Assembly (NCBI GenBank): GCA_027484965.1
Contig: JAIXRY010000015.1
Location: forward strand, 91,807 to 155,806
Direction of reading: 5' to 3'
Source of the DNA: a bacterium
Lineage (GTDB): Bacteria > Patescibacteriota > Minisyncoccia > Phycocordibacterales > UBA9973
Length of the DNA stretch: 64,000 nucleotides
A program made the position numbers and the translations under genes. The notes below the pieces were generated by a model. It did no database searches. It was not told the origin of the DNA and saw only the letters and a program-made list of their open reading frames with translations. Positions 7,598-64,000 of the stretch are shown here, piece after piece (the stretch's first letter is position 1; each line of letters starts with the position of its first letter).

Positions 7598-8194
7598 TTA
7601 TTTTGAATTTGTTAGTGATTGATCAAATTTTCCCGGTAGGAAATTTATTGATTTTGGAGGATAGAGTCTAACCAAGGCTCTCCCAACCATATCTCTTTTT
7701 GGAAGGAAACCCCAATTACGTGAATCATAAGAAGCTGTTCTGTTATCTCCCATAACAAAGTATTGATCTTCTGGGACTGTGAATAGTAGGTTATTGTCAT
7801 TTCCTTTGTTCTCTACATAAGGTTCATCTATTACTACACCCAAAGGGTGTTTACTGTTTGAAATTTTTACCTCACTTCCATTGATTGAGATAGTGTCACC
7901 AGGTAGTCCAATAAGACGCTTGATAAAATATTTACTTTCATCCATTGGTGGTTTTATAACAACAACGTCACCGCGTGATGGATTGCCTGTTAGATATGAT
8001 ATTTGGTCGACAATAAGATAGTCACCATTGTGAAATGTTGGGAACATTGATAAACCGTCTACTATGAATGGCTTTGCAATGTACATGCGAATAGGAATTA
8101 CGATTAAAAGTGAAATAATAATGAAGCGCAAAACATCACGCCAATCTTCTTTCTTTTCTACTTTTTCCTCAACAATTTCTTGGGTTTTTTCCAT
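7598..8194 (-). CDS. lepB: signal peptidase I
   Basis: N-terminal TM; GLSMFPTF Ser box; GDNRTASYDSR box. Confidence 0.85.
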   Translation of the reverse strand: MEKTQEIVEEKVEKKEDWRDVLRFIIISLLIVIPIRMYIAKPFIVDGLSMFPTFHNGDYLIVDQISYLTGNPSRGDVVVIKPPMDESKYFIKRLIGLPGDTISINGSEVKISNSKHPLGVVIDEPYVENKGNDNNLLFTVPEDQYFVMGDNRTASYDSRNWGFLPKRDMVGRALVRLYPPKSINFLPGKFDQSLTNSK

Positions 8195-16735: not shown

Positions 16736-18970
16736 ATGAAAAAATATTCACCTATCATTACATTATGTCTTGCGCTTAGTTTGTTTGTTTTATTCCCAAA
16801 ACAAATACACGCATCATTTGATTTTACTGCTTCAGTATCTTCTGATATTGTTGAAAATGCCAAACCTGGAAATGATGGCACTAAATTAAACTTAAGATAT
16901 TCGGTAACAGCAGCTTCTGGAACAACTCAAACAAAGAGTATTAAAGTTTTCAAAAAAGACAATCCAACAGAAGTTGGTACTGTAAGTAATATTAGTACTA
17001 CTTATGTAAAACTTTACGATGAGGTTGGATGGGGTAGAAACGGCTCTCTGCCATATCATAACAAAGCGTTTTATGAACAAATAGGTACAAATCAGATTAC
17101 AAAAAGAAATTCTCTTTTTGTCTTGCTTTATAATGCTGTTCCAAAACAAGTTGATAAGCCAAATGAATTAATAAAAGGTACTCTTGTTTCTTGGCAAGAA
17201 ATACCTCTCAAAATAAATACTGTTTCAAATGATGGAAATATTGTTTTTGATTCTTTGATAAAAGATAAAAGTTACATTCCAGAAATTTTAGTCGTCAATA
17301 CTGGTTATGGTTCCAATTTAGTCGTCACTGGTAGTGCAATTAAAACAGGTAATACTGTAGGTGCTGGAAATACCTCAAGTGACGATCCTTTTGTGCAAGC
17401 TTCTATTAAGACTAAAGTGGTTTCTAATGTTACTCAATATAATATCTGTGTTGAGATAAATAAATACGCCAAAGCTGATAAGCCAATCAAAATAACAAAA
17501 GGAACTATTGTTGATGGAATTTTAGTCCCAAGCACTCCTTTGAGTGTTGTGAGTGTTACAGATCAAGTTCCAGAGACGCGTATTACTGATACTATGGCTC
17601 GTAGATTGCTTGACTGTACAGAACCTCAAGCGCTTCTTGCAAATACTTCATATGTCGCTGATTTTGATTTTTTAATTACAGATGACGATGCGTATGAACA
17701 AGATCCGGTAACAAGACCTTACTCAGTTCGTGTTTTAGTAAAGACTTATGCAAGTGGACTTGGAGCTGATATTAGTAGAGTGCCTTTATCTAATGGAAAT
17801 CCTGGTACAAATCAAACACCTTCAATCGGTAATTCTCCAAATCTAATTGCAACAAAATTAAGTAATGGTACACACAATGCTTGTGGTTATGTTGATCAAG
17901 CAGATAAGCTTTCAGATATAAACATATCTCTAACTATGGGGACACTAAGTCAGACAGGTAATGCAAGTCCTGTTATTACTCCTGATTATGATAATCGTAC
18001 AGTCACAAAAGCAAAAAGTGATATTAATGAGCAAATAAATCAAAGTACCAAGAGAGGTACTTACTGTACAAATTTTGGAGAACTACTTCCTGGAAACTAT
18101 GTCTTTAAAATGAGTACCATTTTTAATGGGCTTCCAAATATTACAGAATACAGAACTCTTTTTATTGGAGGGTTAAATCCTGGTAGAGTTCCTATGGTTG
18201 ACCCTGTAATTTCTGTTGTTTGGTCAAAAAAGAACAATGCATTTATTGTTACCGGAAAAATAACAAATCTTCCTCCTAATAATGGGGGTACAATAGTGCT
18301 TGTAAAAAAAGGTACTTTTCAAGAAATTAAGCCACTGCAAGCTGATATGGATGGATACTCTACTCCACAAAGAGAGTTTATTATTAGTGCGAAATTTAGA
18401 AATCTCGCCCCTGGTATCTATGTTGCTGTTGTGAGACCTTTACATTCAGATGCTACTCCATTTATTACACCTCAAGGTAGAATTGAGAGAGTTTCAGAAG
18501 AATTTGAAACCGAAAATATAAAAGCGATAAGTCCTGATGATACATTAGATCCGGGAACAGGTACAGGAACGGGAACTGGTTCCGGAACTGGTGGAGGTTT
18601 GTTTGATGATATTGGTGGAGATTTGCTTGAAATCCCAAAAAACGGACTTGTGTTGTGTGGAAGACCTGGTCAGCCTGCTTGTGATTTTAATATGTTGTTG
18701 ATAACTATAAATAAGGTTATTAATTTTGCACTTACGTTAATTGCTACTCCTATAATGCTCTATATGTTGTTTAAAACAGCATGGGAATTCTTTACAGCAG
18801 GAGGGAGTACAGATCAGATCAAGAGAGCAAAACAAAGACTACTCGCTATTGTTATTGGTTATGTGATTGCTCTTACTGCATGGCTTGTTATTAAGACAAT
18901 TATTATACTTCTGGTAGGTGAGGATAATATAACGGGAACTAACCCCATATTTAAGACATTCTTCAATTAA
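16736..18970 (+). CDS. large secreted protein with C-terminal VirB2/TrbC-like two-TM pilin module
   Basis: Signal peptide; about 640-aa extracellular region; Gly-Thr linker (GTGTGTGSGTGGG); C-terminal LLITINKVINFALTLIATPIMLYMLFKTAWEFF..GGSTDQIKRAKQ..LLAIVIGYVIALTAWLVIKTI has the same TM-loop-TM architecture as the four downstream small proteins. Confidence 0.5.
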   Translation: MKKYSPIITLCLALSLFVLFPKQIHASFDFTASVSSDIVENAKPGNDGTKLNLRYSVTAASGTTQTKSIKVFKKDNPTEVGTVSNISTTYVKLYDEVGWGRNGSLPYHNKAFYEQIGTNQITKRNSLFVLLYNAVPKQVDKPNELIKGTLVSWQEIPLKINTVSNDGNIVFDSLIKDKSYIPEILVVNTGYGSNLVVTGSAIKTGNTVGAGNTSSDDPFVQASIKTKVVSNVTQYNICVEINKYAKADKPIKITKGTIVDGILVPSTPLSVVSVTDQVPETRITDTMARRLLDCTEPQALLANTSYVADFDFLITDDDAYEQDPVTRPYSVRVLVKTYASGLGADISRVPLSNGNPGTNQTPSIGNSPNLIATKLSNGTHNACGYVDQADKLSDINISLTMGTLSQTGNASPVITPDYDNRTVTKAKSDINEQINQSTKRGTYCTNFGELLPGNYVFKMSTIFNGLPNITEYRTLFIGGLNPGRVPMVDPVISVVWSKKNNAFIVTGKITNLPPNNGGTIVLVKKGTFQEIKPLQADMDGYSTPQREFIISAKFRNLAPGIYVAVVRPLHSDATPFITPQGRIERVSEEFETENIKAISPDDTLDPGTGTGTGTGSGTGGGLFDDIGGDLLEIPKNGLVLCGRPGQPACDFNMLLITINKVINFALTLIATPIMLYMLFKTAWEFFTAGGSTDQIKRAKQRLLAIVIGYVIALTAWLVIKTIIILLVGEDNITGTNPIFKTFFN

Positions 18971-18988
18971 TAGGTTATAATTATTTAT

Positions 18989-19441
18989 ATGAAAAAGATA
19001 GTACCAACGTTTGGAATTTTAGGAATACTTTTTTTAGGAAGTATTTCACCTGTTTTTTTGTCTAACCAGAATCTTGTTCATGCTCAAGGAACATCGACAG
19101 GTACAACGACTGGGGGTGGGGGTGCGTCTACAGGGTCAGCATCTTCGAATACAAACAAATCATTCAACCTTTCTTTTACAATAGATAATCCTATTAAAGC
19201 AAACAACCTCCAAGAACTCATTGAAAGACTTTTAAAGCTTGTGTATCTTGTAGGTGTTCCAATACTTGTTTGTTTCTTGCTTTGGGCTGGGTTTCTATTT
19301 GTTGAAGCTCGCGGAAATGATAAGAAATTAGTTATTGCTCGTCAAAATTTATATAACGTCGTTATTGGGGCAGTTTTATTCCTCGGTGCATACACAATAG
19401 CAAAAGTTGTAATAGCAACATTAAAAGATATATTCAACTAA
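18989..19441 (+). CDS. pilin-like protein (TrbC/VirB2-like T4SS-pilin family resemblance)
   Basis: Signal peptide, Gly/Thr/Ser-rich linker, then two TM helices split by a short charged loop (WAGFLFVEARGNDKK). Confidence 0.5.
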   Translation: MKKIVPTFGILGILFLGSISPVFLSNQNLVHAQGTSTGTTTGGGGASTGSASSNTNKSFNLSFTIDNPIKANNLQELIERLLKLVYLVGVPILVCFLLWAGFLFVEARGNDKKLVIARQNLYNVVIGAVLFLGAYTIAKVVIATLKDIFN

Positions 19442-19445
19442 TAGT

Positions 19446-20264
19446 ATGAAAAATTTATTATACAAAATCATTGTTCCTTCATTACTTGTACTTGCTTTCA
19501 TAATCCCTATATTTCCCCAAAAAGCACAAGCTCTGACAGATCAAGAACAACAAGTAATTCTCCAGACAGCACTTTCTGCTATTATGATAGCTTTTCCGTA
19601 TATTTGTGGAGGTGCGTCTGTACCTACAGATACACCAGAGCAAGCGCAGCAACGTGAAAAAGTTAGACAAGCTTGTAGAAATACCGGGCAAATAAGTTCT
19701 CAAGTTATGTATATATTGATACAGTTATACCCTGAAGTATGTCAAAGAATGCCAAATGTTTGTTCTAGTATTATGCAAGTATTGGGTGCACTTGGTGGAA
19801 GTGGGGTTGTAGGTGGTTTTGGTGGTACAGGCCCTACAGTTATAGGAACTGGAGCGGGAGGAGCTATCTCTACTGGTCCAACTGCTGGTGGTGGTGGAGC
19901 TTTCGTTTCTACTGGCCCAACAGTTGCTAATATTACATACGCGTCCGGTCCTGCAAATGGAGGGTGCCCATCTGGTATATCTAATATTTCTGATATATAT
20001 CTACTCGCAAAATGTATTTTGGCTGGAATGGTTATTCCGATGATATTTATACTAGCATTCTTGGTATTTCTTTGGGGTGTGATGCAATTTATAAGAAAAG
20101 GAGACAATCAAGCAAAACGTCAAGAAGGTATTAATTTTATGTGGTACGGAATAGTTTCTCTTTTTGTAATGACTTCAGTGTGGGGAATTGTTAAGATTGC
20201 TACGACGACTCTCGGAGTAGATGGCACATATATACCAAAAGTAGAATCCCCAAAGAAAAACTAG
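19446..20264 (+). CDS. pilin-like protein (paralog)
   Basis: Same architecture; shared motifs FLWGVMQFIRKGDNQAKR and LFVMTSVWGIV. Confidence 0.5.
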   Translation: MKNLLYKIIVPSLLVLAFIIPIFPQKAQALTDQEQQVILQTALSAIMIAFPYICGGASVPTDTPEQAQQREKVRQACRNTGQISSQVMYILIQLYPEVCQRMPNVCSSIMQVLGALGGSGVVGGFGGTGPTVIGTGAGGAISTGPTAGGGGAFVSTGPTVANITYASGPANGGCPSGISNISDIYLLAKCILAGMVIPMIFILAFLVFLWGVMQFIRKGDNQAKRQEGINFMWYGIVSLFVMTSVWGIVKIATTTLGVDGTYIPKVESPKKN

Positions 20265-20356
20265 CACTTATATATATATATTTTGTATAATATGAAGAGT
20301 AGGCGCTGTCGTGTCTATGGACTATTAGTTTTTATTATTATTTATAATTTTTTATT

Positions 20357-20758
20357 ATGAAAAAGTTTATTCCTTTTGCAAGTGCACTTGCTCTTCCAGC
20401 TCTTGCTTTTGCACAAACTCGACCAGATTTTACTTATCTCGAATCTACATTTAATGCAGGTAAAGGTGTTTTAAGTGGTGCTATTAATGTGATAATGATT
20501 CTTGCATTCGTATATTTCCTTTGGACAGTTATTCAGTTTATTAGAGCAGAAGCTGGTAAAAAAGCAGATGCTCGTACAAATATGATTTATGCAATCATTG
20601 GTTTGTTTGTAATGACTTCTGTTTGGGGTATTGTTGGTATTCTTCGTCAAACAACTCAAGCAGGTCAAGGCGGTCAAGGTACTATTACTTGTCCTCCAGG
20701 AACTACTGCACAACAAGTAACTGGCGCTAATGGTCTTAGAACTGTTGTTTGTTACTAA
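20357..20758 (+). CDS. pilin-like protein (paralog)
   Basis: FLWTVIQFIRAEAGKKADAR and LFVMTSVWGIV motifs. Confidence 0.5.
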   Translation: MKKFIPFASALALPALAFAQTRPDFTYLESTFNAGKGVLSGAINVIMILAFVYFLWTVIQFIRAEAGKKADARTNMIYAIIGLFVMTSVWGIVGILRQTTQAGQGGQGTITCPPGTTAQQVTGANGLRTVVCY

Positions 20759-21087
20759 GTATGTTTTGGTTAATTCCTTTTACTCAAATAGCTCATGCAC
20801 AAGATGTGGGAGAAAAGTTGATTAATACTGTTTTAGACAAGATTATTAATCCACTAGTATTCTTCTTGTTCGTTGCAGCTCTTATATACTTTCTTTGGGG
20901 TGTCTTTATGTATCTCAAAGATGGTGATAAACAAGACGCTAGAACTACAGGTTCACGGCACATTCTTTGGGGGCTGGTGGGTTTGGTTATTATGATGAGT
21001 GTATACGGCATCATACGACTCGTTGTAAACACCTTCAACTTTCAAGCACCAAGTCGTACTGTAGACTTGAAGAGTATAGGGAAATAG
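20749..21087 (+). CDS. pilin-like protein (paralog)
   Basis: FLWGVFMYLKDGDKQDAR and VIMMSVYGII motifs. Confidence 0.5.
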   Translation: MLLSMFWLIPFTQIAHAQDVGEKLINTVLDKIINPLVFFLFVAALIYFLWGVFMYLKDGDKQDARTTGSRHILWGLVGLVIMMSVYGIIRLVVNTFNFQAPSRTVDLKSIGK

Positions 21088-23060: not shown

Positions 23061-23285
23061 TCGCTCGATAGTTAGTACAAAAAACCTTAATAAATAAAGT
23101 TTTAGGGGAGAGGGAGGACTTGAAACTTACAGTTTCAGTACACCTTTTGGATATTTTATTTCACTCTGTTCATAAAAGTATCTCAAAAGCTTTTCAAGTC
23201 CTACTCCTGTTTTTAGAAAAAAAACAGTTGCGTCTCCCAAGCAAAAAGTCCCTAAAAGGGACTTTTTTGTGCTGACAGGACTTTC

Positions 23286-23420
23286 CGACTACGTCGGCAG
23301 GTACTTTTCAATCTCGTAAACTCGATAATGAAAAGTCTTTCAAGTCCTCACGAAAAGTGTGCAGACATTTTTCTTCCCGAGCACAAAATAAAAAGCCTCA
23401 AAAATGAGGCTTTTTATTTT
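23286..23420. repeat. tRNA-associated palindromic repeat unit (copy 1, downstream of tRNA-Leu-TAG)
   Basis: cgac-tac-gtcg hairpin, ggtacttttcaat, ataatgaaaagtctttcaagtcc motif, gcag-loop hairpin, and inverted copy of the tRNA T-arm/acceptor (ttcaagtcctc...ttcccgagcac). Confidence 0.5.
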
Positions 23421-23503: not shown

Positions 23504-23643
23504 ATTACAATATCAATAATGATTTTGTATAGAAATAGTACCATAAGATTTATATTTTTCAAAGTGAAAGATAATCATATAATATAGACACTTTTCCACA
23601 AAATTATCTTATTAATTTACTGTGTTTATGAGACAATATAAAT

Positions 23644-26600
23644 ATGTTAAATAATTTTAAATATTTTATAACCAGAAGCTATACACTTTTTGTGGTATCT
23701 ATCTTCATCTTCACATTTTCTATATTAAAAGTATCAGCTGTATACTATCCTACAGACAACATAACTAATCCTACATGTGCACCAGGTGCAGTAGGATGTT
23801 ATGTATCTTTACTTCCTGATCAGGTAGGTAATGCAGGTAAACTTTTAATTACTAACGGTACAAATCCTTCTTGGTCCAATACTATTGGAAATGATCTTAC
23901 TATAAATACTCTGACTGTTGGCTTAGGTGGTGGAAGTGTTTCTACTAACACAGCTGTTGGTGTTGAGACATTGTTTAGTAATACTACTGGAGGTGCTAAT
24001 ACTGCTAATGGTTTTAGATCTTTAAGAGAAAATACTACAGGTGATATGAATAGTGCTCTTGGATATAATTCACTTAGATATAATACAACCGGATCTGAAA
24101 ATGTTGCTTTTGGATATAATTCAATGTTTGCCAATACTTCAGGAGGTAAGAATTCAGCTTTTGGTAAAGAAACACTTTCTAGTAATACTACAGGTACTTA
24201 TAATACTGCAATAGGATATCAATCTCTCTTGTCTAATACATCAGGTGCATACAATGTTGCAATAGGTAATAATGCGCTTGATGCAAATACTACAGGTATA
24301 AGTAATATTGGATTTGGTCATAACGCTCTAGGAGTTAACACTTCCGGCTCATACAATATTGCTTCAGGTTGGAATACTTTATCTGCAAATACTACAGGTA
24401 GTCATAATATTGCTTTTGGTTCAGACACTCTAGGTTTAAATACTACAGGTATTCAAAATATTGCACTGGGACAACAGGCGCTAGTTAATAATTTGTCTGG
24501 TCAATATAATGTTTCAATAGGGACACAGTCACTTTTTAATAATACTACCGGTGGCAACAATCTAGCTTATGGGTACTATGCTGGTTACAATAGTCAGACA
24601 GGTTCAAATAATATTTTTATTGGAGCACAAACTGGTCTTGGTATAACAACAGGTTCAAACAACACAATCATTGGTGCTAATGTTACAGGACTCTCTTCAT
24701 CTCTTTCAAATAATATTATTATTGCAGACGGTGCAGGGAATCAAAGAATTAATATAGATAGTAATGGTAATGCAGAAATAGGTGGAAATATTTATTCTGC
24801 TGGTTTGAAGTGGAGTACAACAGCCCCTGTAGCTGACAGGCAATGGGTTGATGTAGGTTATGGAAATGGACTCTTTGTTGCTGTAGCTCAAGGTTCTGGA
24901 ACAGACAGAATTATGACATCTCCTGATGGTGTAAACTGGACATTGAGAACTCACTCTACTTCATCATTAAAATCAATCACTTATGGTAATGGAATATTCG
25001 TAGCGGCTGGTCATTCTGGTACCCGTTTTTTAACCTCTACAGATGGAATAACTTGGACAGCCCGTACTGGTACAGGACAATCGTTTTATGTAACTTACGG
25101 TAATGGTCTTTTTGTTGCTTCAAAAATAGATAATGCTGGGCTTAGAATTATAACATCTCCAGATGGAATAACTTGGACAGATAGAGTAACTCCTGTAGGA
25201 GCTGATAAACCTTGGGTTGGAATAACTTACGGTAATGGTCTTTTTGTTACTGTGGCTGAGACGAATGGAACACAGTCTATTATGACATCTCCAGATGGTA
25301 TAAACTGGACACTACAGACACACCCATCTGTTTCTTCTGGTGGATTTGAAAACGTTGCTTATGGTGATGGTAAATTTGTAGCTGTCGGTATTGGTGGTTT
25401 AGTTATGACATCTCCAGACGGAGTAAACTGGACACAACAGTCTTTCCCAAATGCAGCCCTTCTTTATCGAATAACTTATGCTGAGGGCATGTTTGTTACA
25501 GCTGGAGCTTTCTCTACAACAAACAACAATATTTATACTTCACCTGATGGTATAACTTGGACAACAAGAGTTGTTCCTAAAAATGATTGGGCTGGAGTTG
25601 CTTATGGTAATGGACGTTTTGTAATGGTTGCCTTTTCTGGAACTCTCGGTAGTCGTGTTGCATACTCTGGTAAAATGTCTACACTAGACACTTTAACAGC
25701 AAATATATTCCACGGTAATCATTTCTTTACTGCTAACATCGGCATCGGCACAACCTCTCCCTTCGGCAAACTCGACGTTGCAGGCTCATCATCAAGTACA
25801 GACTTAGTAGCATTCGACACAAACAGAAGTATCTCTGTAATCAACACAAACACTACAACAAACAACGCACAAGGTATAGCACTCCGTTCATATGGTACAG
25901 ACGGAACAACTATCCAATCAGGTGTAAAACTCCTTGCAGTTAACACAGCAAGAACAGCTACAACAATAACTTCTGATCTTGCAATCCTTACCAACAATGC
26001 TGGTACGATAAGTGAGAAGATGCGTATTCTTGCAAATGGAAAAGTAAATATTGGAACGGGTAATGTTTATAATACTGATTCAAATACTCTTCTGAATGTT
26101 TATGGTAATATGGGGGTTGTTAGAGCTAATAATCCTGCCTCTGTTTTTGTAGGAAGAACTCAATCAGGAGGACTTCCTACAGCTAGTGCTACATTAGGTA
26201 GTCTCGGAGCTGCGCTTTTTGATGGGACAAATTGGGTGGCTGGTGGTAATAGATTTGCTTTCTTTGCTGCAGAAAACTGGACAAATAGTGCGCAAGGCAC
26301 TTGGATGAGATATGCAAGTGTTCCAGTGGGTTCGAATGCATCTGTTAATATTTTAGAAATAACACCTTCAGGACAATTTAATTTTGGTACAAGCACTCTC
26401 TATCCAGCTCTCACAGAAACATCTCGATTGATGGTTAATGGTCTAGGTTCAACATCATCTACATTTACAGCTCAATTTCATAATTCAACAGGAACTTCAA
26501 ATTCTTTAGTTGTTCGTGATGATGGTAGAGTAGGTATAGGAAACAACGCTCCATCACACACCCTCCACGTCGGCTCAGGCTCTGTAGTCGGCATCGTCTC

Positions 26601-27264
26601 CCGCTTCCAAAACAGTACCGGAACCTGTGACATCAACCCAACAACAACATCACTCTCATGTAGTTCAGATATCAACCTCAAGAAGAACATCACAACTCTA
26701 AAAGATAATCAACCTTTCGTACTAAACTCTCAAACTCCAGATACAAATGTCCTTAAGAATCTAAACAAACTAACACCAGTTATCTACAACTGGACTACAG
26801 AACAAGACACAGCTACAAAACAAACAGGATTCATCGCACAAGACGTAGAACAAATCTTCCCATCTCTTGTATCTACAGACCCTACAACAAACCTCAAGTC
26901 TCTTAACTACATAGGTCTCATCCCATATGCTATAGAAGGTATTAAAGAGTTAGATATCAAGGTTAATCAGTTGAGTTCTTTGGATGATACAGTTGAAGGA
27001 ACATTTGCTTCATTGATAAAATCATATTTATCTAATGCTACAAATCGTATAACTCGTATATTTACAGGAGAAGTTTGTTTGACTGATAGTGATGGAAGTT
27101 CTGAATGTTTGAACAAACAAGAACTACACCAGTTGAAGCAATTGCTTAATAATCAAGGAGTATCAAATAATACTAGTAATCCTGTAGTAGAAGAAGAAGT
27201 TGTAATTCCTGATGAGCCTGCAATTACACCTGAAAATCCTGTAATAGAAGAAGTAATTGAATAA
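23644..27264 (+). CDS. giant tail-fibre-like surface protein with C-terminal peptidase S74 intramolecular-chaperone domain
   Basis: 1206 aa. N-terminal signal anchor; about 20 repeats of a 14-15 aa N-x-A-x-G unit, Hep_Hag/tail-fibre-like; eight V-x-YGNGLFVAV...IMTSPDG(V/I)NWT Asp-box-like propeller repeats; C-terminal SSDINLKKNI...TGFIAQDVEQIFPSLV...LNYIGLIPYAIEGIKELDIKVNQL matches the auto-cleaving chaperone domain of phage endosialidase/tail fibres. Confidence 0.6.
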   Translation: MLNNFKYFITRSYTLFVVSIFIFTFSILKVSAVYYPTDNITNPTCAPGAVGCYVSLLPDQVGNAGKLLITNGTNPSWSNTIGNDLTINTLTVGLGGGSVSTNTAVGVETLFSNTTGGANTANGFRSLRENTTGDMNSALGYNSLRYNTTGSENVAFGYNSMFANTSGGKNSAFGKETLSSNTTGTYNTAIGYQSLLSNTSGAYNVAIGNNALDANTTGISNIGFGHNALGVNTSGSYNIASGWNTLSANTTGSHNIAFGSDTLGLNTTGIQNIALGQQALVNNLSGQYNVSIGTQSLFNNTTGGNNLAYGYYAGYNSQTGSNNIFIGAQTGLGITTGSNNTIIGANVTGLSSSLSNNIIIADGAGNQRINIDSNGNAEIGGNIYSAGLKWSTTAPVADRQWVDVGYGNGLFVAVAQGSGTDRIMTSPDGVNWTLRTHSTSSLKSITYGNGIFVAAGHSGTRFLTSTDGITWTARTGTGQSFYVTYGNGLFVASKIDNAGLRIITSPDGITWTDRVTPVGADKPWVGITYGNGLFVTVAETNGTQSIMTSPDGINWTLQTHPSVSSGGFENVAYGDGKFVAVGIGGLVMTSPDGVNWTQQSFPNAALLYRITYAEGMFVTAGAFSTTNNNIYTSPDGITWTTRVVPKNDWAGVAYGNGRFVMVAFSGTLGSRVAYSGKMSTLDTLTANIFHGNHFFTANIGIGTTSPFGKLDVAGSSSSTDLVAFDTNRSISVINTNTTTNNAQGIALRSYGTDGTTIQSGVKLLAVNTARTATTITSDLAILTNNAGTISEKMRILANGKVNIGTGNVYNTDSNTLLNVYGNMGVVRANNPASVFVGRTQSGGLPTASATLGSLGAALFDGTNWVAGGNRFAFFAAENWTNSAQGTWMRYASVPVGSNASVNILEITPSGQFNFGTSTLYPALTETSRLMVNGLGSTSSTFTAQFHNSTGTSNSLVVRDDGRVGIGNNAPSHTLHVGSGSVVGIVSRFQNSTGTCDINPTTTSLSCSSDINLKKNITTLKDNQPFVLNSQTPDTNVLKNLNKLTPVIYNWTTEQDTATKQTGFIAQDVEQIFPSLVSTDPTTNLKSLNYIGLIPYAIEGIKELDIKVNQLSSLDDTVEGTFASLIKSYLSNATNRITRIFTGEVCLTDSDGSSECLNKQELHQLKQLLNNQGVSNNTSNPVVEEEVVIPDEPAITPENPVIEEVIE

Positions 27265-27329: not shown

Positions 27330-27445
27330 TCATAGATTTTCATAAATAAGCAAAAGCTTTTCGATCCCTACACGCATATGAAGCAGTTCATATGCTTGAG
27401 GGGACAAAAAAACAAAAACACCAATTTGGTGTTTTTGTTTTTTTG
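27330..27445. repeat. tRNA-associated palindromic repeat unit (copy 2, downstream of tRNA-Lys)
   Basis: aaaagcttttcgatccctac + gcatatgaa-gcag-ttcatatgc hairpin + ttgaggggac(a)n ... tgtcccctca long palindrome ending inside the tRNA acceptor. Confidence 0.5.
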
Positions 27446-27518
27446 TCCCCTCAGTAGGGATCGAACCTACGACATTCTCCTTAAGAGGGAGCTACTCTAC
27501 CAGCTGAGTTATGAGGGG
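27446..27518 (-). tRNA. tRNA-Lys (anticodon CTT)
   Basis: Minus strand; acceptor CCCCTCA/TGAGGGG (unusual C1-G72), D-loop AGCTGGTA, anticodon loop CTCTTAA, T-loop TTCGATC. Confidence 0.7.
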
Positions 27519-27628
27519 TCTTATATTATATTTTAAAACTTACTTTTACCCCACAATTCTTTTGTTGAAGCCACTACAGCTGAGTTATGAGGGGATTATA
27601 TTAAAAAAAATATGAAGGGGTCTCGCCT

Positions 27629-27727
27629 TAATGAAAAGTCTTTTGAAGCCCATCAAGGCAATAAGCTGGGCACCTGTGGACGGTCTTGGGCACAAAGTAA
27701 ATAAACCTAGAAGGTTTATTTACTTTG
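27629..27727. repeat. tRNA-associated palindromic repeat unit (copy 3, downstream of tRNA-Leu-TAA)
   Basis: aatgaaaagtcttttgaagccc motif then gcacaaagtaaataaacc-taga-aggtttatttactttgtgc hairpin running into the tRNA 3' end. Confidence 0.5.
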
Positions 27728-27871: not shown

Positions 27872-28002
27872 CGACTTACAGTCGCGGGTACTTTTCAATT
27901 TTTTACTTCATAAAAAATAATGAAAAGTCTTTCGATTCCCGCACGCAAGCAAAGCAGTTTGCTTGCTCCACGTCTCAAGAAAACCCCTAATGGGTTTTCT
28001 TG
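27872..28002. repeat. tRNA-associated palindromic repeat unit (copy 4, downstream of tRNA-Cys)
   Basis: cgact-tac-agtcg hairpin, ggtacttttcaat, ataatgaaaagtctttcgattcccgc, gcaagcaaa-gcag-tttgcttgc hairpin, ccacgtctcaagaaaacccc-taat-ggggttttcttgagacgtgg. Confidence 0.5.
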
Positions 28003-28483: not shown

Positions 28484-29974
28484 TTATTTTTGTACCATAA
28501 TAAATGATTCTAAGATATCTCCAGACGCTATGTCGAGCTTTGCTTCTACAAATAGTCCACATTCTTCTCCTTCTATAGCGTCTTTTGTTTTTGACTTACT
28601 CTTTTGTACTTCAAGAATTTTTCCACGCCCAATTTCGTTTTCGCGACGGATAATTCTAACAATACTTCCTGATTCTATGCGTCCAGAAATAACTTTTCCT
28701 CCAACAACTTGTTTGTCGCGAGTTTGTGAAAATGTTTTTATTATTTTTAGTTGTCCGATAGATTCTATAGTCTCAACACGAGGTCTCTTTGCTTCGAGGT
28801 TTACTTCAAGCCATTCAGTGAGTTTGTAGATTATGTTGAAGAGTTCTATTGTGAGTCCAAGTTTTTCATTTGTGTCACGAGCAATAGGATCAATTTTTAC
28901 ATTAAATCCAACAATAACAGTGTCTTTGTCACTTGCAGCACGCTTGATATCTCCTTCAGAAATATTACCGACACCACAAGTCATTATTTTGTATGCAATT
29001 TTTTCTTGTGCAAGTTTCTTTACTTCTTTTTCAATAGCTTCAGCTGTTCCTAATACATCTGTTTTAATGATGAGGGGAATATATTTCTTTTCTGTGTCAG
29101 TAACTTCTACTGCAGATGATTCGTCTTGCCAATCAGCGATACTTTCTTCAGCTTCTTTCTTTGTATCAACAGTTGTAAATCTTGTTCCGACTTTTGGAAC
29201 ATTTGACCATCCAGAGACTCTTATGGCGTTTGAAAAACTTGCACTTTGAACAGGCTTACCCAAAAAATCTTCAAGCATCTTTGTACTTGCATATGCATTT
29301 CCAGCAACTATAAATTGACCTTTTTTAACAGTTCCATTTTTAATTATAAGAGTTGCTTGGGCGCCAATTTTAGAATCACTTTTTGATTCTATAATTAGTC
29401 CGTTAGCTGGGATTTCTGGCGTTCCTACAAATTCTTCCAAGTCAGCAACAAGACTGATTGTTTCAAAAAGATCTGGAACCCCTTCTCCTGTTTTTGCAGA
29501 AATGAGTACGAAAGGTGTTGTCCCTCCCATACCTTCTAGATACACTTCGTTTTCAGCAAGATCCATTTTTGTCTTGTCTACGTTTGCTCCTGGTTTGTCT
29601 ATTTTGTTTATTCCAACAATAAAAGGTACTTCATTTTCTTTGATTGTTTTTATTGCTTCAAGAGTTTGCATCTTTACACTATCTTCAGCAGACACTATAA
29701 GGATTGCAATATCGGCAACCTGAGCTCCACGAGAGCGCATACCAGAGAATGCAGCATGTCCTGGTGTGTCAATGAATGTTATTGCGCGTTCTTTTCCGTC
29801 AGAAGTTTTATGCTTTACTTCATAAGCAGATAAGTGTTGAGTTATTCCTCCAGCTTCTCCGTCTACGATGTTTGTTTTGCGAATGTAGTCGAGAAGGGTA
29901 GATTTACCATGGTCAACGTGTCCCATGATTACTACTACCGGCGCTCTTTCTTTTGTGGTTATTTTTATACTCAT
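28484..29974 (-). CDS. infB: translation initiation factor IF-2 (short form)
   Basis: G-domain VVIMGHVDHGKSTLLD, DTPGHAAF, NKID; only 496 aa, lacking the N-terminal extension. Confidence 0.9.
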   Translation of the reverse strand: MSIKITTKERAPVVVIMGHVDHGKSTLLDYIRKTNIVDGEAGGITQHLSAYEVKHKTSDGKERAITFIDTPGHAAFSGMRSRGAQVADIAILIVSAEDSVKMQTLEAIKTIKENEVPFIVGINKIDKPGANVDKTKMDLAENEVYLEGMGGTTPFVLISAKTGEGVPDLFETISLVADLEEFVGTPEIPANGLIIESKSDSKIGAQATLIIKNGTVKKGQFIVAGNAYASTKMLEDFLGKPVQSASFSNAIRVSGWSNVPKVGTRFTTVDTKKEAEESIADWQDESSAVEVTDTEKKYIPLIIKTDVLGTAEAIEKEVKKLAQEKIAYKIMTCGVGNISEGDIKRAASDKDTVIVGFNVKIDPIARDTNEKLGLTIELFNIIYKLTEWLEVNLEAKRPRVETIESIGQLKIIKTFSQTRDKQVVGGKVISGRIESGSIVRIIRRENEIGRGKILEVQKSKSKTKDAIEGEECGLFVEAKLDIASGDILESFIMVQK

Positions 29975-45961: not shown

Positions 45962-46118
45962 ACCAATAAGAGTTAGAACAAATACGTCTAGTCGATTGAT
46001 AGATAAAAGCTTTCCACAAAATAGGTATTTATTTGTATTACGCACCGGGATATAATGTAACTTATATGAAAAAGTGTTTTATAATAGATAAATTAACGAT
46101 TACATTTGCACTCCTCTC

Positions 46119-46442
46119 ATGGTTTGTACCTTTATTTGTCAGTTTTTTTTAGTAGATCCAGAAACAAAAGTAACCATTATTAATCCAATACTTTTTAAAG
46201 TATTGATGATTGTAATTGTTACTATCATAACTTTTTATGGTTATAGTAAAATAAATACAAAAACTGGTATAAGTATTCAGACGTCTAATACTTTTTTGGC
46301 TCTTAATTTTTTACTAGACATTGTAGTTCTAATAGTGTTGTTTAGTGTTCCTTTTATGGTATGGGCTACAACCATACTACCTGTATATATACTAGTGTTT
46401 TACGGAGTGTGCTTTATCATTAAAGGACATGGTATTCAGTAG
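46119..46442 (+). CDS. small membrane protein, hypothetical
   Basis: 107 aa, three TM helices; contains a T8 tract at 46143-46150. Confidence 0.35.
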   Translation: MVCTFICQFFLVDPETKVTIINPILFKVLMIVIVTIITFYGYSKINTKTGISIQTSNTFLALNFLLDIVVLIVLFSVPFMVWATTILPVYILVFYGVCFIIKGHGIQ

Positions 46443-46815
46443 TTTTAATCCACCGTTTACAAATAAAACTCTAGAGGACTTTTTTGAATTTTATACAAAA
46501 CATACTAATGACGCTAATACTCTTAGAGACTGGATTTTAGATACTTACCCAGATTTAGATATAGGTCTTTCCTATCACGTTCCTTTTTTCTATATAAACA
46601 AAAAGAAGTTATTTTACTTATACTATTTCAAAAATGAAGACGAAGAACTTGCTCTTGAAATCAGTTTTATTAAAGGTGTAAATATAAAAGATAAATATGT
46701 TTTGTTTCAAGAAAAAAACAAAGAGACTAAGTCTATAATTATTACAAATGTATCTGCGCCATTTTTGGATAAACTAAGGTATTACATAGATACTGTAATT
46801 GAACAAAATATTTAA
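46429..46815 (+). CDS. DUF1801/YdhG-like protein, putative
   Basis: About 128 aa; LRDWILDTYPDLDIGLSYHVPFFYINKKKLFYLYYFKN pattern resembles YdhG family. Confidence 0.4.
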   Translation: MVFSSFNPPFTNKTLEDFFEFYTKHTNDANTLRDWILDTYPDLDIGLSYHVPFFYINKKKLFYLYYFKNEDEELALEISFIKGVNIKDKYVLFQEKNKETKSIIITNVSAPFLDKLRYYIDTVIEQNI

Positions 46816-47085
46816 TATATACTCTCAAGTACCGTCGAAAGTGAAGGCATCAACGACAGCCTTACAGAGCTTGACCAACCACGATTCTAGCTCAAGTACT
46901 CCAGCAATACTATATAAAAACACCCGCGATAAAGTGGGTGTTTTTATATAGTATATTGTTGCTGTGTGGACTCGAACTGTGGGTCGCAATCCTCGTCGAG
47001 AGGATGAAGGTCTCGAACTCAGCATAGTGAGAGAAGAGTCCTAGTTTCTCAGTATTATGTAAAAAATTATTCAAGAGTTAAAAAA

Positions 47086-47119
47086 TAAAAAAGTCTCCAT
47101 TATTAATGGAGACTTAAAA
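47086..47119 (-). terminator. rho-independent terminator for the 47120-47629 gene
   Basis: aaaaaagtctccat-tatta-atggagactt; the T-run is on the minus strand. Confidence 0.5.
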
Positions 47120-48219: not shown

Positions 48220-48225
48220 TTACTA

Positions 48226-48257: not shown

Positions 48258-48260
48258 TAA

Positions 48261-62967: not shown

Positions 62968-64000
62968 TAATAAACACATGTTAAGTACTCTCAAGTACTT
63001 CTTGAGCCGAGCCTACACGATAGTATCTATCGTGCTTTTTGTACTATCTTACGGAGCTCTCAAAGTATCAGCTATATACTATCCTACAGATAATATAACA
63101 AACCCTACATGTGCACCAGGGGACTCTGGTTGTTATGTATCTTTACTTCCTGACCAAACATCTAATGCAGGGAAGTTTTTGACTACAAACGGCACTACTA
63201 CATCTTGGGCTACGGTGTCTGGTGGTATTTCAAGTTTCAACACTAGAACAGGTGCTATCACTTTAACATCTGGTGATGTAACTGGAGCTCTAGCGTACAC
63301 ACCTTTAAATAAAACTGGAGATACGATGACTGGAGACTTGAATTTGTTAAATATTCAAGCATCTACTTCTTCTGGAATTAATCTAAAAAATATCGGGGGT
63401 ACAACAATTTTTAATGTTGGGTCTGGTAGTGGAGTAAATGCAACAATCACTGCTCCATTAGCTTTAACGGGTGCTTTAACTCAAACAGGAAACGCAGACG
63501 CAGTTCAACTTCGCGTTCGAGGACACAGCACTCAAACTTCAGACTTGACTCAATGGGTGAATTCTTCTGGAACAGTTCTTAATTCAATCAGTGGAGCTGG
63601 TAACGCTGTTTTTGGGCCATCTATCGCACAAGTTCCAAAGGTAGGAATTAGTACAACTAACATCAATCAACCTCTTTTAGTTTTAAAAGCTCCTACTTCT
63701 TTCGCATCATTTTTATTTTTTGCTTTAGATTCTTCTGGGGTTCAAGTTGCTACTATTCATAATTCTGGTGAAAGTATTTTTAAATCTATTACAACAAGGA
63801 GTTCTTTAAACATTGAATCTACAGGAGATGCAACTATTTTTGTCGGTTCTCCAGACGGTGCTACATCTTCGATTGATTTTTTTTCAGATGGTAATGCAAA
63901 TTTTAAGGTTTTAGTAGAACCTTCAACAGATAATTTTATTATAAAGGATGAGGAGACTAATACTCCTTGGTTTAATATTGATAGAGCTAATCGTCGTGTT
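62968..64000 (+). CDS. tail-fibre-like surface protein paralog, partial (runs off window end)
   Basis: ATG at 62968, open to the window end; N-terminus VSAIYYPTDNITNPTCAPGDSGCYVSLLPDQ is near-identical at DNA level to 23720-23840; contains the GDTMTGDL motif common in phage tail-fibre proteins. Confidence 0.5.

What the first reader, a model, noticed from the sequence alone, without database searches (positions are those of the whole stretch)
23644..27264. 1206-aa tail-fibre-like adhesin with self-cleaving S74 chaperone domain in a cellular (CPR-like) genome
The protein has four recognisable modules. An N-terminal signal anchor carries a Cys pair (TCAPGAVGCYV). About 20 repeats of a 14-15 aa N-x-A-x-G unit are typical of phage tail fibres and YadA-like beta-rolls. 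Eight repeats of ...YGNGLFVAV...IMTSPDG(V/I)NWT match the Asp-box (S-x-D-x-G-x-T-W) of BNR/sialidase-like beta-propellers. The C-terminus (SSDINLKKNI...TGFIAQDVEQIFPSLV...LNYIGLIPYAIEGIKELDIKVNQL) matches the intramolecular-chaperone/peptidase S74 domain that auto-cleaves after trimerisation in K1F endosialidase and T5 L-shaped fibres. No capsid, terminase, portal or integrase gene is nearby. It may therefore be a host-encoded trimeric fibre, for example for attachment of an episymbiont to its host cell, or a domesticated phage receptor-binding protein.
Basis: partly seen in the sequence, partly recalled or inferred. Interest (0 to 1): 0.8.

Follow-up and report, generated by a model that had tools for sequence, protein, structure and literature searches.

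The report
Self-cleaving surface fibre of a CPR bacterium
A tiny, probably symbiotic (CPR) bacterium encodes in its own chromosome an exported, phage-tail-fibre-like protein with a self-cleaving assembly domain; it most likely forms a three-stranded surface fibre for sticking to other cells, as a family already shown in the predator Bdellovibrio does.

Summary
The ORF (23644-27264, +, 1206 aa) is real and modular. The C-terminal Peptidase_S74 / intramolecular-chaperone domain is confirmed: Pfam E 7.6e-14, and the S1008-D-x-x-x-K1013 dyad is invariant in the homologues aligned.

There are 16 units of 17 aa, not about 20 of 14-15 aa. The propeller has seven blades, not eight, and is Ycf48-like rather than sialidase-like. 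There is no YadA/Hep_Hag match.

The whole 64-kb window is housekeeping, with no phage genes found. The gene's codon usage matches its neighbours. It has a Sec-type signal peptide, which virion fibres lack. A second paralogue starts at 62978.

Relatives form a large mosaic family, often multi-copy, mostly in MAGs labelled Patescibacteria. The family is marked by:
- a Cys-loop leader (DPxCxPGxxxCxV);
- a Cys pair just before the cleavage serine;
- a Cys-hairpin extension after S74.

The leader and the extension were not seen in viral contigs.

The closest characterised system is the S74 subgroup of Bdellovibrio MAT fibres. These share the S74 end and capping loops but not the N-terminal domain.

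Verdict: a genuine, cell-encoded, self-processing fibre, probably an adhesin. It is a new variant of a known kind. Its adhesive role and trimer state are inferred, not shown.

The parts
23556..23583 (+). sigma-70-like promoter candidate (TTTTCA-16-TATAAT) 60 nt upstream of the start codon
   Evidence: Consensus scan only. Weak evidence.
23644..27264 (+). Whole coding sequence, 1206 aa (126.5 kDa precursor)
   Evidence: ORF list and translation. An identical protein, P0001, is in the NCBI-derived collection on a 156,834-bp contig.
23644..23739 (+). Signal peptide, aa 1-32: n-region K6/R11, 17-residue hydrophobic core, VSA|VY
   Evidence: Sequence. The same layout with an AxA-like site is seen in nearly all complete homologues. 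A signal peptidase I gene is in the window at 7598-8194. SignalP was not run.
23740..23877 (+). Conserved leader of the mature protein, aa 33-78: YYPTDNITNPTCAPGxxGCYVSLLPDQ..GK.L.TNGT..SW, with Cys45/Cys52 loop
   Evidence: 29 of 34 residues (aa 29-62) are identical in the window's second paralogue. The motif [DN]PxCxPx(3-5)Cx[VI] is found in 30 of 327 fetched homologues, in 14 of 33 complete genes in genome loci, and in 88 of the 131 representatives (of the best 150) that begin with Met. It was not found in viral contigs.
23929..24738 (+). Shaft repeats, aa ~96-365: about 16 units of 17 aa (SNTTGxxNxAxGxxxLx)
   Evidence: 51-nt direct-repeat family and motif positions 102...357 at 17-aa spacing. 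Matches PHROG virion structural / tail spike families, E 1e-61 to 1e-34, and phage tail-fibre genes by tblastn.
24805..25668 (+). Seven-bladed beta-propeller, aa ~388-675
   Evidence: 117-132-nt repeats. AlphaFold2 model: pLDDT 87, pTM 0.87, 28 strands. Best solved matches are Ycf48 (E 4.5e-11, TM ~0.68). Weak DUF6242 Pfam hit.
25711..26664 (+). Distal 'tip' region, aa ~690-1007, presumed intertwined beta-helix; mature C-terminus at S1007
   Evidence: Homologues cover it at 25-40% identity. The monomer model is poor here, as expected for an intertwined trimer. The best PDB fold matches are Bdellovibrio fibre tips 8OND, 8OML and 8ONC, then T5 fibre 4UW8.
25735..25773 (+). Capping-loop motif 1, aa 698-710 (NIGIGTTSPFGKL)
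   Evidence: Fits the V-G-G/N-pi-x-x-P-x-x-x-L consensus defined for MAT/S74 fibres (PMC10769870). Sequence.
26527..26565 (+). Capping-loop motif 2, aa 962-974 (RVGIGNNAPSHTL)
   Evidence: Same consensus. V and G are nearly invariant in alignment A3.
26626..26661 (+). Cys995...Cys1006 loop (CDINPTTTSLSC) immediately before the cleavage site
   Evidence: C1006 is invariant in A1 and nearly invariant in A3. A pre-cleavage Cys pair is present in 145 of the 150 best representatives.
26665..26976 (+). Peptidase S74 / intramolecular chaperone auto-processing domain, aa 1008-1111. Catalytic Ser1008 (26665-26667) and Lys1013 (26680-26682); GFIAQ motif; terminal coiled-coil helix
   Evidence: Pfam PF13884, E 7.6e-14. 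S, D, K, G, A and Q are invariant in both A1 and A3. The profile hits PDB 6F45, 8JOV, MYRF 7DC3 and T5 8HQZ. pLDDT of about 90 or more over most of this domain.
26977..27153 (+). Post-S74 extension, aa 1112-1170: helix, Cys1145/Cys1155 beta-hairpin (FTGEVCLTD...ECL), helix
   Evidence: Conserved in Patescibacteria homologues. Modelled with pLDDT 62-86. Covered by nearly all of the 150 best representatives. In the viral-contig scan all but two of 43 matches stop within the S74 domain itself (query residues up to ~112 of 165), and none reaches the Cys-hairpin.
27154..27261 (+). Acidic, Pro/Glu/Val-rich low-complexity tail, aa 1171-1206
   Evidence: Sequence. Similar Pro/Ser/Thr/Glu-rich tails are seen in homologues.
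27400..27450 (.). Perfect 24-bp hairpin between the fibre stop codon and the 3' end of tRNA-Lys; possible bidirectional terminator
   Evidence: Sequence and ViennaRNA fold. Not picked up by the consensus terminator scan.
62978..64000 (+). Start of a second family member that runs off the window. It has the same signal peptide and Cys-loop leader and a different passenger.
   Evidence: tblastn of the fibre against the window: aa 1-136, 48% identity, E 8e-31. Translation. It lies directly after mraZ-mraW-PBP.

Best explanation
This is a chromosomal gene of a Paceibacteria-type CPR/Patescibacteria bacterium. It encodes a Sec-exported precursor of a trimeric, phage-tail-fibre-like surface fibre.

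Proposed mechanism:
1. The 32-residue signal peptide takes the unfolded chain across the membrane and is removed by signal peptidase I (inferred).
2. Outside the cell, three chains are brought into register by the C-terminal S74 intramolecular-chaperone domain (aa 1008-1111). This domain nucleates folding of the preceding beta-helical tip (aa ~690-1007, bounded by two capping loops). Folding then proceeds towards the N-terminus. This step is inferred from what is established for K1F endosialidase, the T5 L-shaped fibre, MYRF and Bdellovibrio Bd3182.
3. Each chain also folds its own seven-bladed propeller (aa 388-675), so three propellers would project from the shaft. The 16 x 17-aa repeats form the proximal shaft.
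4. The Ser1008/Lys1013 dyad then cuts the S1007|S1008 bond. This releases a 22-kDa C-terminal fragment and leaves a ~100-kDa mature chain ending in a conserved Cys-bridged loop (inferred).
5. The conserved Cys-loop leader at the new N-terminus holds the fibre on the cell surface. The variable passenger (propeller plus tip) binds a ligand on a partner or host cell (inferred by analogy; no partner is known).

Shown here: the domain identities, the intact catalytic motif, the cellular context, the native codon usage, the export signal, and the existence of a large mosaic family that is often multi-copy. Not shown: trimerisation, cleavage, surface retention and the ligand.
For: S74 domain:
- Pfam E 7.6e-14, starting exactly at S1008.
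- S-D-x-x-x-K and GxIAQ are invariant in 8-sequence and 52-sequence alignments.
- The profile hits solved S74 domains: 6F45 1.6e-13, 8JOV 2e-12, MYRF 7DC3 7e-6 and T5 8HQZ 3e-5.
- The model has pLDDT of about 90 or more over most of the domain.
- Fold matches are Bdellovibrio fibres, then T5 and K1F, and phage 'intramolecular chaperone auto-processing' proteins.

Cellular, not viral:
- The scanned ORFs across the 64-kb window are housekeeping genes: dnaE, gyrA, infB, rbfA, clpB, topA, dprA, serS, ftsQ, lepB, the dcw genes and others.
- The neighbouring unknown ORFs have no PHROG hit.
- RSCU correlation with the other genes is 0.91, and GC3 is 0.20, within the range of its neighbours.

Export:
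- A signal-peptide-like N-terminus with an AxA-type site occurs here and in most complete homologues.

Family:
- A second paralogue is in the window.
- Several MAGs carry 2-3 copies. 40 of the 80 loci kept carry Patescibacteria-type labels.
- Related genes sit among rplB/adk/map and leuS/murJ/lepA.
- 245 clusters at 50% identity reach E<=1e-30 for the C-terminal module. Lengths among the 150 best range from 257 to 4953 aa.
- P0089 shares both termini with this protein but has a different middle.

Precedent:
- Bdellovibrio MAT fibres have a signal peptide and an S74 domain with SDxxxK. Cleavage at S782 is blocked by S782A. They locate to the predator surface or prey and have capping loops (PMC10769870).
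Against: - No experiment or multimer model supports trimerisation or cleavage here. The tip region modelled poorly as a monomer: mean pLDDT 66, below 50 over about 157 residues.
- There is no recognisable anchoring device (no LPXTG, lipobox or C-terminal transmembrane segment). If the signal peptide is cleaved, the fibre could simply be released.
- The N-terminal leader has no similarity to the MAT N-terminal domain, and its partner is unknown.
- The organism's lifestyle is not known from the window. The CPR assignment is indirect: the taxon labels of homologues, the VirB2-like pilin array and low GC.
- No ligand can be inferred. The propeller's best structural match, Ycf48, is a protein-binding assembly factor, not an adhesin.
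Confidence: 0.65

Rival explanations
1. It is a secreted, released enzyme (a polysaccharide depolymerase or glycosidase) built like K1F endosialidase, with a propeller, a beta-helical stalk and an S74 chaperone. Its job would be to degrade a host capsule or wall polymer rather than to hold on to a cell.
For: The domain order (propeller, then beta-helix, then S74) resembles the endosialidase layout; this comparison is from established knowledge of PDB 3GW6/1V0E, not tested here. Some phage hits to the shaft region are annotated 'endo N acetylneuraminidase'. No anchoring device was found. The signal peptide looks cleavable.
Against: No sialidase or other glycosidase appears among the 50 best PDB matches of the propeller model. 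It has 7 blades and matches Ycf48 best, followed mainly by WD40-type propellers. There is no BNR or glycosyl-hydrolase Pfam hit. The Asp-box-like motif is non-canonical. Only 1 of the 150 closest C-terminal relatives carries the propeller, so the propeller is an exchangeable passenger, not the family's core function.
Confidence: 0.12
2. It is a structural envelope or S-layer-associated spike, or a phage decoy, with no specific role in partner-cell recognition. The mosaicism would reflect antigenic or phage-evasion variation.
For: It is an exported, repetitive member of a mosaic family that is multi-copy in several genomes. Surface-protein variation is common in CPR genomes, for example the VirB2-like arrays. 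The closest homologues carry only generic annotations.
Against: S74-terminated fibres that have been characterised (phage receptor-binding proteins, Bdellovibrio MATs) are ligand-binding devices. Conserved termini with variable distal passengers is the pattern of receptor-binding proteins.
Confidence: 0.13
3. It is a phage, tailocin or eCIS tail fibre (a prophage remnant or recently domesticated receptor-binding protein) that still works as part of a particle assembled in the cytoplasm.
For: Each module has phage relatives: PHROG virion/tail-spike families, tblastn hits to phage tail-fibre genes and BFVD S74 proteins. The gene lies inside a cluster of four tRNA genes, and tRNA genes are classical integration sites.
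Against: - No phage, integrase, tail-tube or sheath gene was found among the ORFs scanned across 64 kb.
- No att-like direct repeat brackets the gene.
- Codon usage is native.
- It has a Sec signal peptide, which virion fibres lack.
- The Cys-loop leader and the post-S74 extension were not found in IMG/VR contigs.
- Related genes in other genomes are not next to tRNAs, apart from a single tRNA about 2.7 kb from one of 15 loci, and sit among housekeeping genes.
Confidence: 0.05

Closest known systems
Bdellovibrio bacteriovorus MAT (mosaic adhesive trimer) fibres, S74 subgroup (e.g. Bd3182; Caulton et al. 2024, PMC10769870)
   Same: - Chromosomally encoded, about 1,000 aa, with a signal peptide.
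- Conserved N-terminal part, mosaic passenger and VGxGxxxPxxxL capping loops.
- C-terminal S74 domain with SDxxxK.
- Multi-copy in the genome.
- The best PDB fold matches of the C-terminal model are Bd2133, Bd1334 and Bd3182.
- A Bdellovibrio homologue aligns over aa 944-1165 at 30% identity, E 3e-18.
   Different: - The ~130-aa beta-rich MAT N-terminal domain is replaced by an unrelated short Cys-loop leader; no similarity was detected.
- This protein adds a Cys pair right before the cleavage Ser and a ~95-aa extension after S74 (Cys-hairpin plus acidic/Pro-rich tail).
- It carries a seven-bladed propeller in the passenger.
- The organism is a presumed monoderm CPR bacterium, not a diderm predator.
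- There are no functional data.
Phage S74 (intramolecular chaperone) receptor-binding proteins: K1F endosialidase endoNF, T5 L-shaped tail fibre pb1, phi29 gp12, S16 long tail fibre
   Same: Homologous S74 domain with a Ser/Lys dyad. A beta-helical region precedes it. The shaft repeats are homologous to phage virion/tail-spike PHROGs. The fold matches many phage ICA-domain proteins.
   Different: It has a Sec signal peptide and extracytoplasmic Cys pairs. It is not in a phage genome. The S74 domain is not at the very C-terminus: 199 aa follow the catalytic Ser, against ~100-140 in the shorter-tailed S74 proteins recovered here. The N-terminus is a conserved exported leader rather than a virion-attachment domain.
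MYRF (eukaryotic myelin regulatory factor) ICA domain
   Same: A cell-encoded, not viral, use of the S74/ICA domain for trimerisation-dependent self-cleavage. The profile hits 7DC3 at E 6.8e-6.
   Different: In MYRF the cleavage frees an N-terminal transcription factor from a C-terminal membrane anchor. Here there is no transmembrane segment after the S74 domain, and the N-terminal product is extracellular.
Ycf48/HCF136-type seven-bladed propellers (BNR/Asp-box-like repeats)
   Same: This is the best structural match of the aa 380-695 model (E 4.5e-11, TM ~0.68). Seven blades, with an Asp-box-like loop in each blade.
   Different: Only 13-18% identity. The motif is one residue shorter than the Asp-box. 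Here the propeller is a passenger domain inside a fibre protein, not a free assembly factor.

Membership tests
Peptidase S74 / intramolecular chaperone auto-processing (ICA) domain, PF13884 | Significant match to the family profile above the curated cut-off | tested here: met
   52.2 bits against a cut-off of 22, E 7.6e-14, aa 1008-1076 on profile 1-57/58. An alignment-derived profile hits solved S74 domains 6F45, 8JOV, 7DC3 and 8HQZ.
Peptidase S74 / intramolecular chaperone auto-processing (ICA) domain, PF13884 | Catalytic Ser-Lys dyad in the S-D-x-x-x-K arrangement at the domain start | tested here: met
   S1008-D-I-N-L-K1013. S, D and K are invariant in A1 (8 sequences) and A3 (52 sequences).
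Peptidase S74 / intramolecular chaperone auto-processing (ICA) domain, PF13884 | Domain fold (beta-rich core plus C-terminal coiled-coil helix) preceded by a beta-helical stalk | tested here: met
   The model has pLDDT of about 90 or more over most of the domain (block means 89-97 for aa ~1006-1105), with a terminal helix at aa 1092-1111. Foldseek matches Bdellovibrio, T5 and K1F entries and phage ICA proteins. The stalk itself is poorly modelled as a monomer.
Peptidase S74 / intramolecular chaperone auto-processing (ICA) domain, PF13884 | Trimerisation-dependent autoproteolysis releasing the C-terminal domain | not testable with these tools
   This needs expression with S1008A/K1013A controls, or a multimer prediction. 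Only monomer AlphaFold2 was available.
Bdellovibrio MAT fibre family (Caulton 2024) | Signal peptide | tested here: met
   Positively charged n-region, 17-residue hydrophobic core and VSA|VY. The assessment is heuristic; SignalP was not run.
Bdellovibrio MAT fibre family (Caulton 2024) | Conserved ~130-aa beta-rich domain immediately after the signal peptide | tested here: not met
   BLASTP of aa 33-140 against the N-terminus of a Bdellovibrio S74 fibre (locus L055) gives nothing below E 0.07. A short Cys-loop leader takes its place.
Bdellovibrio MAT fibre family (Caulton 2024) | Capping-loop motif V-G-G/N-pi-x-x-P-x-x-x-L flanking the tip, and (S74 subgroup) a terminal S74 domain | tested here: met
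   NIGIGTTSPFGKL (698-710) and RVGIGNNAPSHTL (962-974). S74 as above.
Bdellovibrio MAT fibre family (Caulton 2024) | Surface display and binding to a target cell | not testable with these tools
   No expression or localisation data are available.
BNR/Asp-box sialidase-type propeller | Canonical Asp-box S-x-D-x-G-x-T-W and a match to BNR/sialidase profiles | tested here: not met
   The motif is S-x-D-G-x-x-W, one residue shorter. No BNR, BNR_2 or PSII_BNR Pfam hit at E<=1; only DUF6242 at 29.2 bits against a cut-off of 29.
BNR/Asp-box sialidase-type propeller | Six-bladed sialidase fold | tested here: not met
   The model has seven blades. The top matches are Ycf48, followed mainly by WD40-type propellers. 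No sialidase is in the top 50.
YadA-like trimeric autotransporter adhesin | Hep_Hag/YadA head repeats (14-aa period) and a C-terminal YadA beta-barrel anchor | tested here: not met
   No PF05658 or YadA-anchor hit. The period is 17 aa. The C-terminus is S74, not a barrel. The shaft has no PDB relatives by sequence.
Phage virion tail fibre / prophage gene | Located in a phage structural module or prophage | tested here: not met
   No phage hallmark gene among the ORFs scanned across 64 kb. Native codon usage. Relatives lie among housekeeping genes.
Phage virion tail fibre / prophage gene | Sequence homology of shaft and tip to phage fibre families | tested here: met
   phrog_6002 1.4e-61, phrog_23837 2e-42, phrog_4636 1e-33. 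125 phage records match by tblastn, none covering more than 26% of the query.

The most novel reading that the evidence does not exclude
This protein represents a large, so far undescribed family of Sec-exported, self-cleaving trimeric fibres that is found mainly in Patescibacteria. The family is defined by a Cys-loop leader (DPxCxPGxxxCxV), a Cys-bridged loop at the cleavage site and a Cys-hairpin extension after S74. Its members would be the organelles by which episymbiotic CPR cells recognise and hold their hosts. They would act as host-range determinants assembled from phage receptor-binding modules, evolving by exchange of passenger cassettes between fixed termini.
Probability: 0.35. Interest if true: 0.8.

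Novelty: new variant of a known kind. Interest (0 to 1): 0.55.

Why it matters
How CPR/Patescibacteria cells find and attach to their hosts is largely open. In the literature read here, type IV pili are the only named adhesion factor, and a 2025 survey of their type IV secretion genes reported no adhesins in its CPR dataset.

A family of exported, phage-fibre-like proteins with exchangeable distal domains, multi-copy in several genomes, would give concrete candidates for host recognition. Recombinant tips or propellers could be used as probes to identify the hosts of uncultured lineages.

It also extends the cell-encoded use of the S74 self-cleaving chaperone, so far characterised in Bdellovibrio and in eukaryotic MYRF, to a major bacterial radiation, with its own leader and C-terminal additions.

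Against this, S74 'tail fiber domain-containing proteins' are already routinely annotated in these genomes, and the mechanism is known. The advance is one of recognition and framing rather than a new principle.

Tried and rejected
- **Prophage or integrative element at the tRNA cluster.** No att-like direct repeats bracket the gene. The repeats found are an intergenic motif recurring downstream of each minus-strand tRNA and an 18-nt duplication of the 5' end of tRNA-Lys on the far side of that tRNA. 14 of 15 related loci have no tRNA in their flanks; one has a single tRNA about 2.7 kb from the gene. Rejected.
- **Recent horizontal acquisition.** GC, GC3 and RSCU are indistinguishable from the housekeeping genes. 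Rejected as recent; ancient phage ancestry of the modules remains likely.
- **Diversity-generating retroelement target.** No long near-identical template/variable repeat pair in 22.9-28.2 kb, and no reverse transcriptase among the scanned ORFs. Not supported.
- **Functional link to the type IV secretion or VirB2-like pilin array 2.5 kb upstream.** A TraG-like gene lies near the L030 relative. tblastn of TraG-like and pilin proteins against all 80 genome loci found no recurrence; only a type IV pilin-like gene turned up near L028. Dropped.
- **YadA/Hep_Hag and sialidase assignments.** No profile or structural support.
- **Synteny with relatives.** None of the window's neighbouring genes recur in the related loci. 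The window's own genome is not in the species-representative collection. The exact-sequence look-up found neither the fibre nor IF-2 on record, so the organism could not be named.
- **Technical limits.** The 8-sequence alignment A1 was too diverse for locus scanning, so a 3-sequence alignment was used instead. The N-terminal leader is too short for a whole-library profile search, so its distribution was estimated by motif counting only.
- **Literature.** Searches pairing Patescibacteria, CPR or Saccharibacteria with S74, endosialidase, tail fibre or the Bdellovibrio paper's author found nothing relevant. This covers only the open-access library.

Full report

The window has one open reading frame at 23644..27264 on the + strand, encoding 1206 aa.

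- N-terminus. It has K6 and R11, a 17-residue hydrophobic core and the sequence VSA|VYYP. Cys45 and Cys52 lie after this point. This is the layout of a cleavable Sec signal peptide followed by a Cys loop, not a signal anchor that carries the cysteines. SignalP was not available, so this is a heuristic reading.
- Shaft repeats. The N-x-A-x-G motif recurs at aa 102, 119, 136 ... 357 with a strict 17-aa spacing. The DNA repeat finder gives the same 51-nt period. There are about 16 units of 17 aa, not about 20 units of 14-15 aa.
- Propeller repeats. There are seven YG(N/D)GxFV motifs and six SxDGxxW motifs, with a period of 117-132 nt. The motif is one residue shorter than the canonical Asp-box.
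- C-terminus. It matches Pfam Peptidase_S74 (PF13884) with E 7.6e-14 and 52 bits against a cut-off of 22. The match starts exactly at S1008, and S1008-D-I-N-L-K1013 has the Ser/Lys spacing of the family.

**2. What the modules are**

*Shaft (aa ~96-365).* It matches three PHROG families annotated as virion structural protein or tail spike, with E 1e-61 to 1e-34. It also matches tail-fibre genes of Pelagibacter, Roseobacter and cyanophages by tblastn. No Hep_Hag/YadA Pfam model hits, and there is no relative among solved structures by sequence.

*Propeller (aa 380-695).* Modelled with an alignment of 33 homologues, it gave a confident seven-bladed propeller: pLDDT 87, pTM 0.87, 28 strands. Its best solved matches are Ycf48 (E 4.5e-11, TM about 0.68), followed mainly by WD40-type propellers and, further down, sortilin Vps10. 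No sialidase appears in the first 50 matches. The 'BNR/sialidase-like' label is therefore right only in the loose sense of an Asp-box-like propeller.

*Tip and S74 (aa 676-1175).* This region was modelled with 51 homologues. [quoted passage not shown] - The best PDB fold matches of this model are the Bdellovibrio fibre tips 8OND (E 2e-4), 8OML and 8ONC, then the T5 L-shaped fibre with its chaperone (4UW8) and K1F (3GW6). TM-scores are low, so the ranking matters more than the scores.
- Against predicted viral structures, the best matches that carry a name are phage 'intramolecular chaperone auto-processing domain' or Peptidase S74 proteins, with E down to 8e-13 overall.
- A profile of eight C-terminal regions hits solved S74 domains by sequence: 6F45 1.6e-13, 8JOV 2e-12, MYRF 7DC3 7e-6 and T5 8HQZ 3e-5.
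- In that alignment and in a 52-sequence one, S1008, D1009, K1013 and the G-x-I-A-Q motif are conserved. S, D, K, G, A and Q are invariant in both; the Ile is invariant in one and nearly invariant in the other.
- Two copies of the 'capping loop' motif defined for S74/MAT fibres (V-G-G/N-pi-x-x-P-x-x-x-L; PMC10769870) sit at aa 698-710 and aa 962-974.

**3. Cellular or viral?**

I scanned nearly all ORFs of 100 aa or more that do not overlap a larger one, across the 64-kb window. They encode:
- dnaE, RNase HII, fmt, def, hisS, signal peptidase I, pth and S1;
- gyrA, a solute-binding protein and five VirB2-like 'T4SS_pilin' proteins;
- rbfA, infB, clpB, topA, dprA, serS, ftsQ and dus;
- a clamp-loader subunit, greA, lysS, mraZ, mraW and two PBPs.

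There is no capsid, portal, terminase, tail or integrase gene. The two unknown ORFs next to the fibre gene have no PHROG hit.

The gene sits inside a cluster of four minus-strand tRNA genes, but no att-like repeat brackets it. Its GC (0.375), GC3 (0.20) and codon usage (RSCU r = 0.91 against the other genes) are those of its neighbours. Arrays of VirB2-like pilin genes are a described feature of CPR genomes (bioRxiv 10.1101/2025.01.22.634366). This feature, the taxon labels of the homologues and the low GC support the 'CPR-like' label. The organism itself could not be named.

**4. The family**

- A second member starts at 62978, right after the mraZ-mraW-PBP genes, and runs off the window. It shares the signal peptide and leader (29 of 34 residues identical over aa 29-62) and then diverges.
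- P0089 (845 aa) shares both the N-terminus and the C-terminal ~250 aa with this protein (64-76% identity over that region) but has a different middle.
- A scan of one genome per species recovered 113 relatives. Of the 80 loci kept, 40 carry Patescibacteria-type labels (Paceibacterota, Nomurabacteria, Yonath-, Taylor-, Roizman-, Woesebacteria and others). Several MAGs have two or three copies.
- Nearly all complete Patescibacteria genes have a signal-peptide-like start, the motif [DN]PxCxPx(3-5)Cx[VI], and mostly 175-260 residues (occasionally more) after the catalytic Ser. Many of the S74 genes from other phyla (Bacteroidota, Acidobacteriota, Bdellovibrio, Omnitrophota) also have signal peptides, but most have only about 110-140 residues after the Ser. 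Some of them start the mature protein with a different 'F-x-Y-Q-G-x-L' motif.
- In the closest related genome, one copy lies between rplB plus a type IV pilin-like gene and adk/map. Another lies between murJ and lepA.
- A whole-library search with aa 960-1175 found 15,782 clusters at 50% identity with E<=1e-3, 1,396 with E<=1e-10 and 245 with E<=1e-30.
- The 150 best nearly all cover the query through the post-S74 extension. Their lengths run from 257 to 4953 aa. Of these, 103 have a signal-peptide-like start, 88 have the Cys-loop leader and 145 have the Cys pair before the cleavage site. Only this protein carries the propeller.
- In IMG/VR viral contigs, the S74 domain itself is common at 48% identity or less. 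None of the matches reaches the Cys-hairpin extension, and none contains the leader. These scans depend on short peptide patterns, so absence is suggestive, not proof.

**5. How it most likely works**

What is shown is the anatomy and the context described above. The rest follows from established knowledge of S74 domains in K1F endosialidase, the T5 fibre pb1 and MYRF, and from the demonstration for Bdellovibrio Bd3182. That protein self-cleaves at S782, and S782A blocks the cleavage.

The proposed sequence of events is:
1. The precursor is exported by Sec and its signal peptide is removed.
2. Three chains are registered by the S74 domain, which templates the beta-helical tip.
3. Each chain contributes one lateral propeller, and the 17-aa repeats form the shaft.
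4. The Ser1008/Lys1013 dyad cuts before S1008. This releases a 22.0-kDa acidic fragment and leaves a 100.6-kDa mature chain ending in the conserved loop C995...C1006.
5. Conserved termini with exchangeable distal domains is the design of receptor-binding proteins. I therefore take the passenger (propeller plus tip) to be the ligand-binding part and the Cys-loop leader to be the attachment to the producing cell.

The weakest steps are surface retention (no anchor motif was found) and the nature of the ligand.

**6. Comparison with what is known**

It works like the S74 subgroup of Bdellovibrio MAT fibres. It is not a member of that family as defined, because the defining N-terminal ~130-aa domain is absent. 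It is a bona fide member of the S74/ICA domain family. It is not a YadA-type adhesin, not a sialidase and not a prophage gene.

Databases already label Patescibacteria homologues 'tail fiber domain-containing protein'. I found no paper in the searchable library that connects CPR/Patescibacteria with S74 fibres.

**7. Verdict**

It is a new variant of a known kind: cell-encoded S74 fibres. What is distinctive is the leader, the cysteine-bracketed cleavage site, the post-S74 extension and the propeller passenger, all in a lineage where host attachment is an open problem. Interest is moderate (0.55). It would rise to about 0.8 if the family is shown to mediate host recognition.

Noticed in passing
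window 62978-64000 (+), runs off the end: A second gene of the same family sits immediately after mraZ-mraW-PBP. It has the same signal peptide and Cys-loop leader and a different passenger. Its C-terminus is outside the window, so whether it ends in S74 is unknown.
   Followed up: partly
window 16736-21087 (+): An array of five consecutive genes whose products match the VirB2-like T4SS_pilin model PF18895, three of them above its curated threshold. One is a 744-aa protein with the pilin domain at its C-terminus. Such arrays are described for CPR genomes. No recurrent linkage to the fibre family was found in 80 related loci.
   Followed up: partly
window 23184-23350, 27351-27371, 27628-27650, 27917-27939: A ~20-nt motif (AATGAAAAGTCTTTC.A..CC) recurs about 55-75 nt downstream of each of the four minus-strand tRNA genes, with one extra copy at 23184 that has no tRNA beside it. 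23114-23148 resembles part of tRNA-Leu at 71% identity, which could be a decayed tRNA.
   Followed up: no
window 27577-27594 vs 27501-27518: An exact 18-nt duplication of the 5' end of tRNA-Lys lies 76 nt upstream of that tRNA, on the side away from the fibre gene.
   Followed up: no
window 27400-27450: A perfect 24-bp A/T-rich hairpin closed by GGGG/CCCC lies between the fibre stop codon and tRNA-Lys and overlaps the tRNA's 3' end by a few bases. It is possibly a bidirectional terminator. The consensus terminator scan missed it.
   Followed up: partly
window 46001-54000: This stretch has markedly lower GC (0.28-0.30, against about 0.35 elsewhere). It holds a YibE/F-like membrane protein, a histidine kinase, a CAAX protease-like gene and several ORFs with no Pfam hit.
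   Followed up: no
window 28484-29974 (-): IF-2 is only 496 aa. It consists of the GTPase and C-terminal domains and lacks the long N-terminal region found in many bacteria.
   Followed up: no
L030 6669-12136 (Candidatus Paceibacterota MAG CTOTU14240): In the closest related genome, a type IV pilin-like gene (N_methyl motif) and the fibre gene lie between rplB and adk/map, where further ribosomal-protein genes and secY would be expected. A TraG/VirD4-like gene follows.
   Followed up: partly
proteins P0006, P0061 (Patescibacteria) and loci L019, L047, L053, L055: A second type of S74 fibre N-terminus (signal peptide, then a Y/F-Q-G-x-L motif) appears to be shared by Bdellovibrio, Bacteroidota, Acidobacteriota and some Patescibacteria proteins. 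This was judged by eye; a stricter pattern matched only a few of them. If so, both leader types occur in the radiation.
   Followed up: partly
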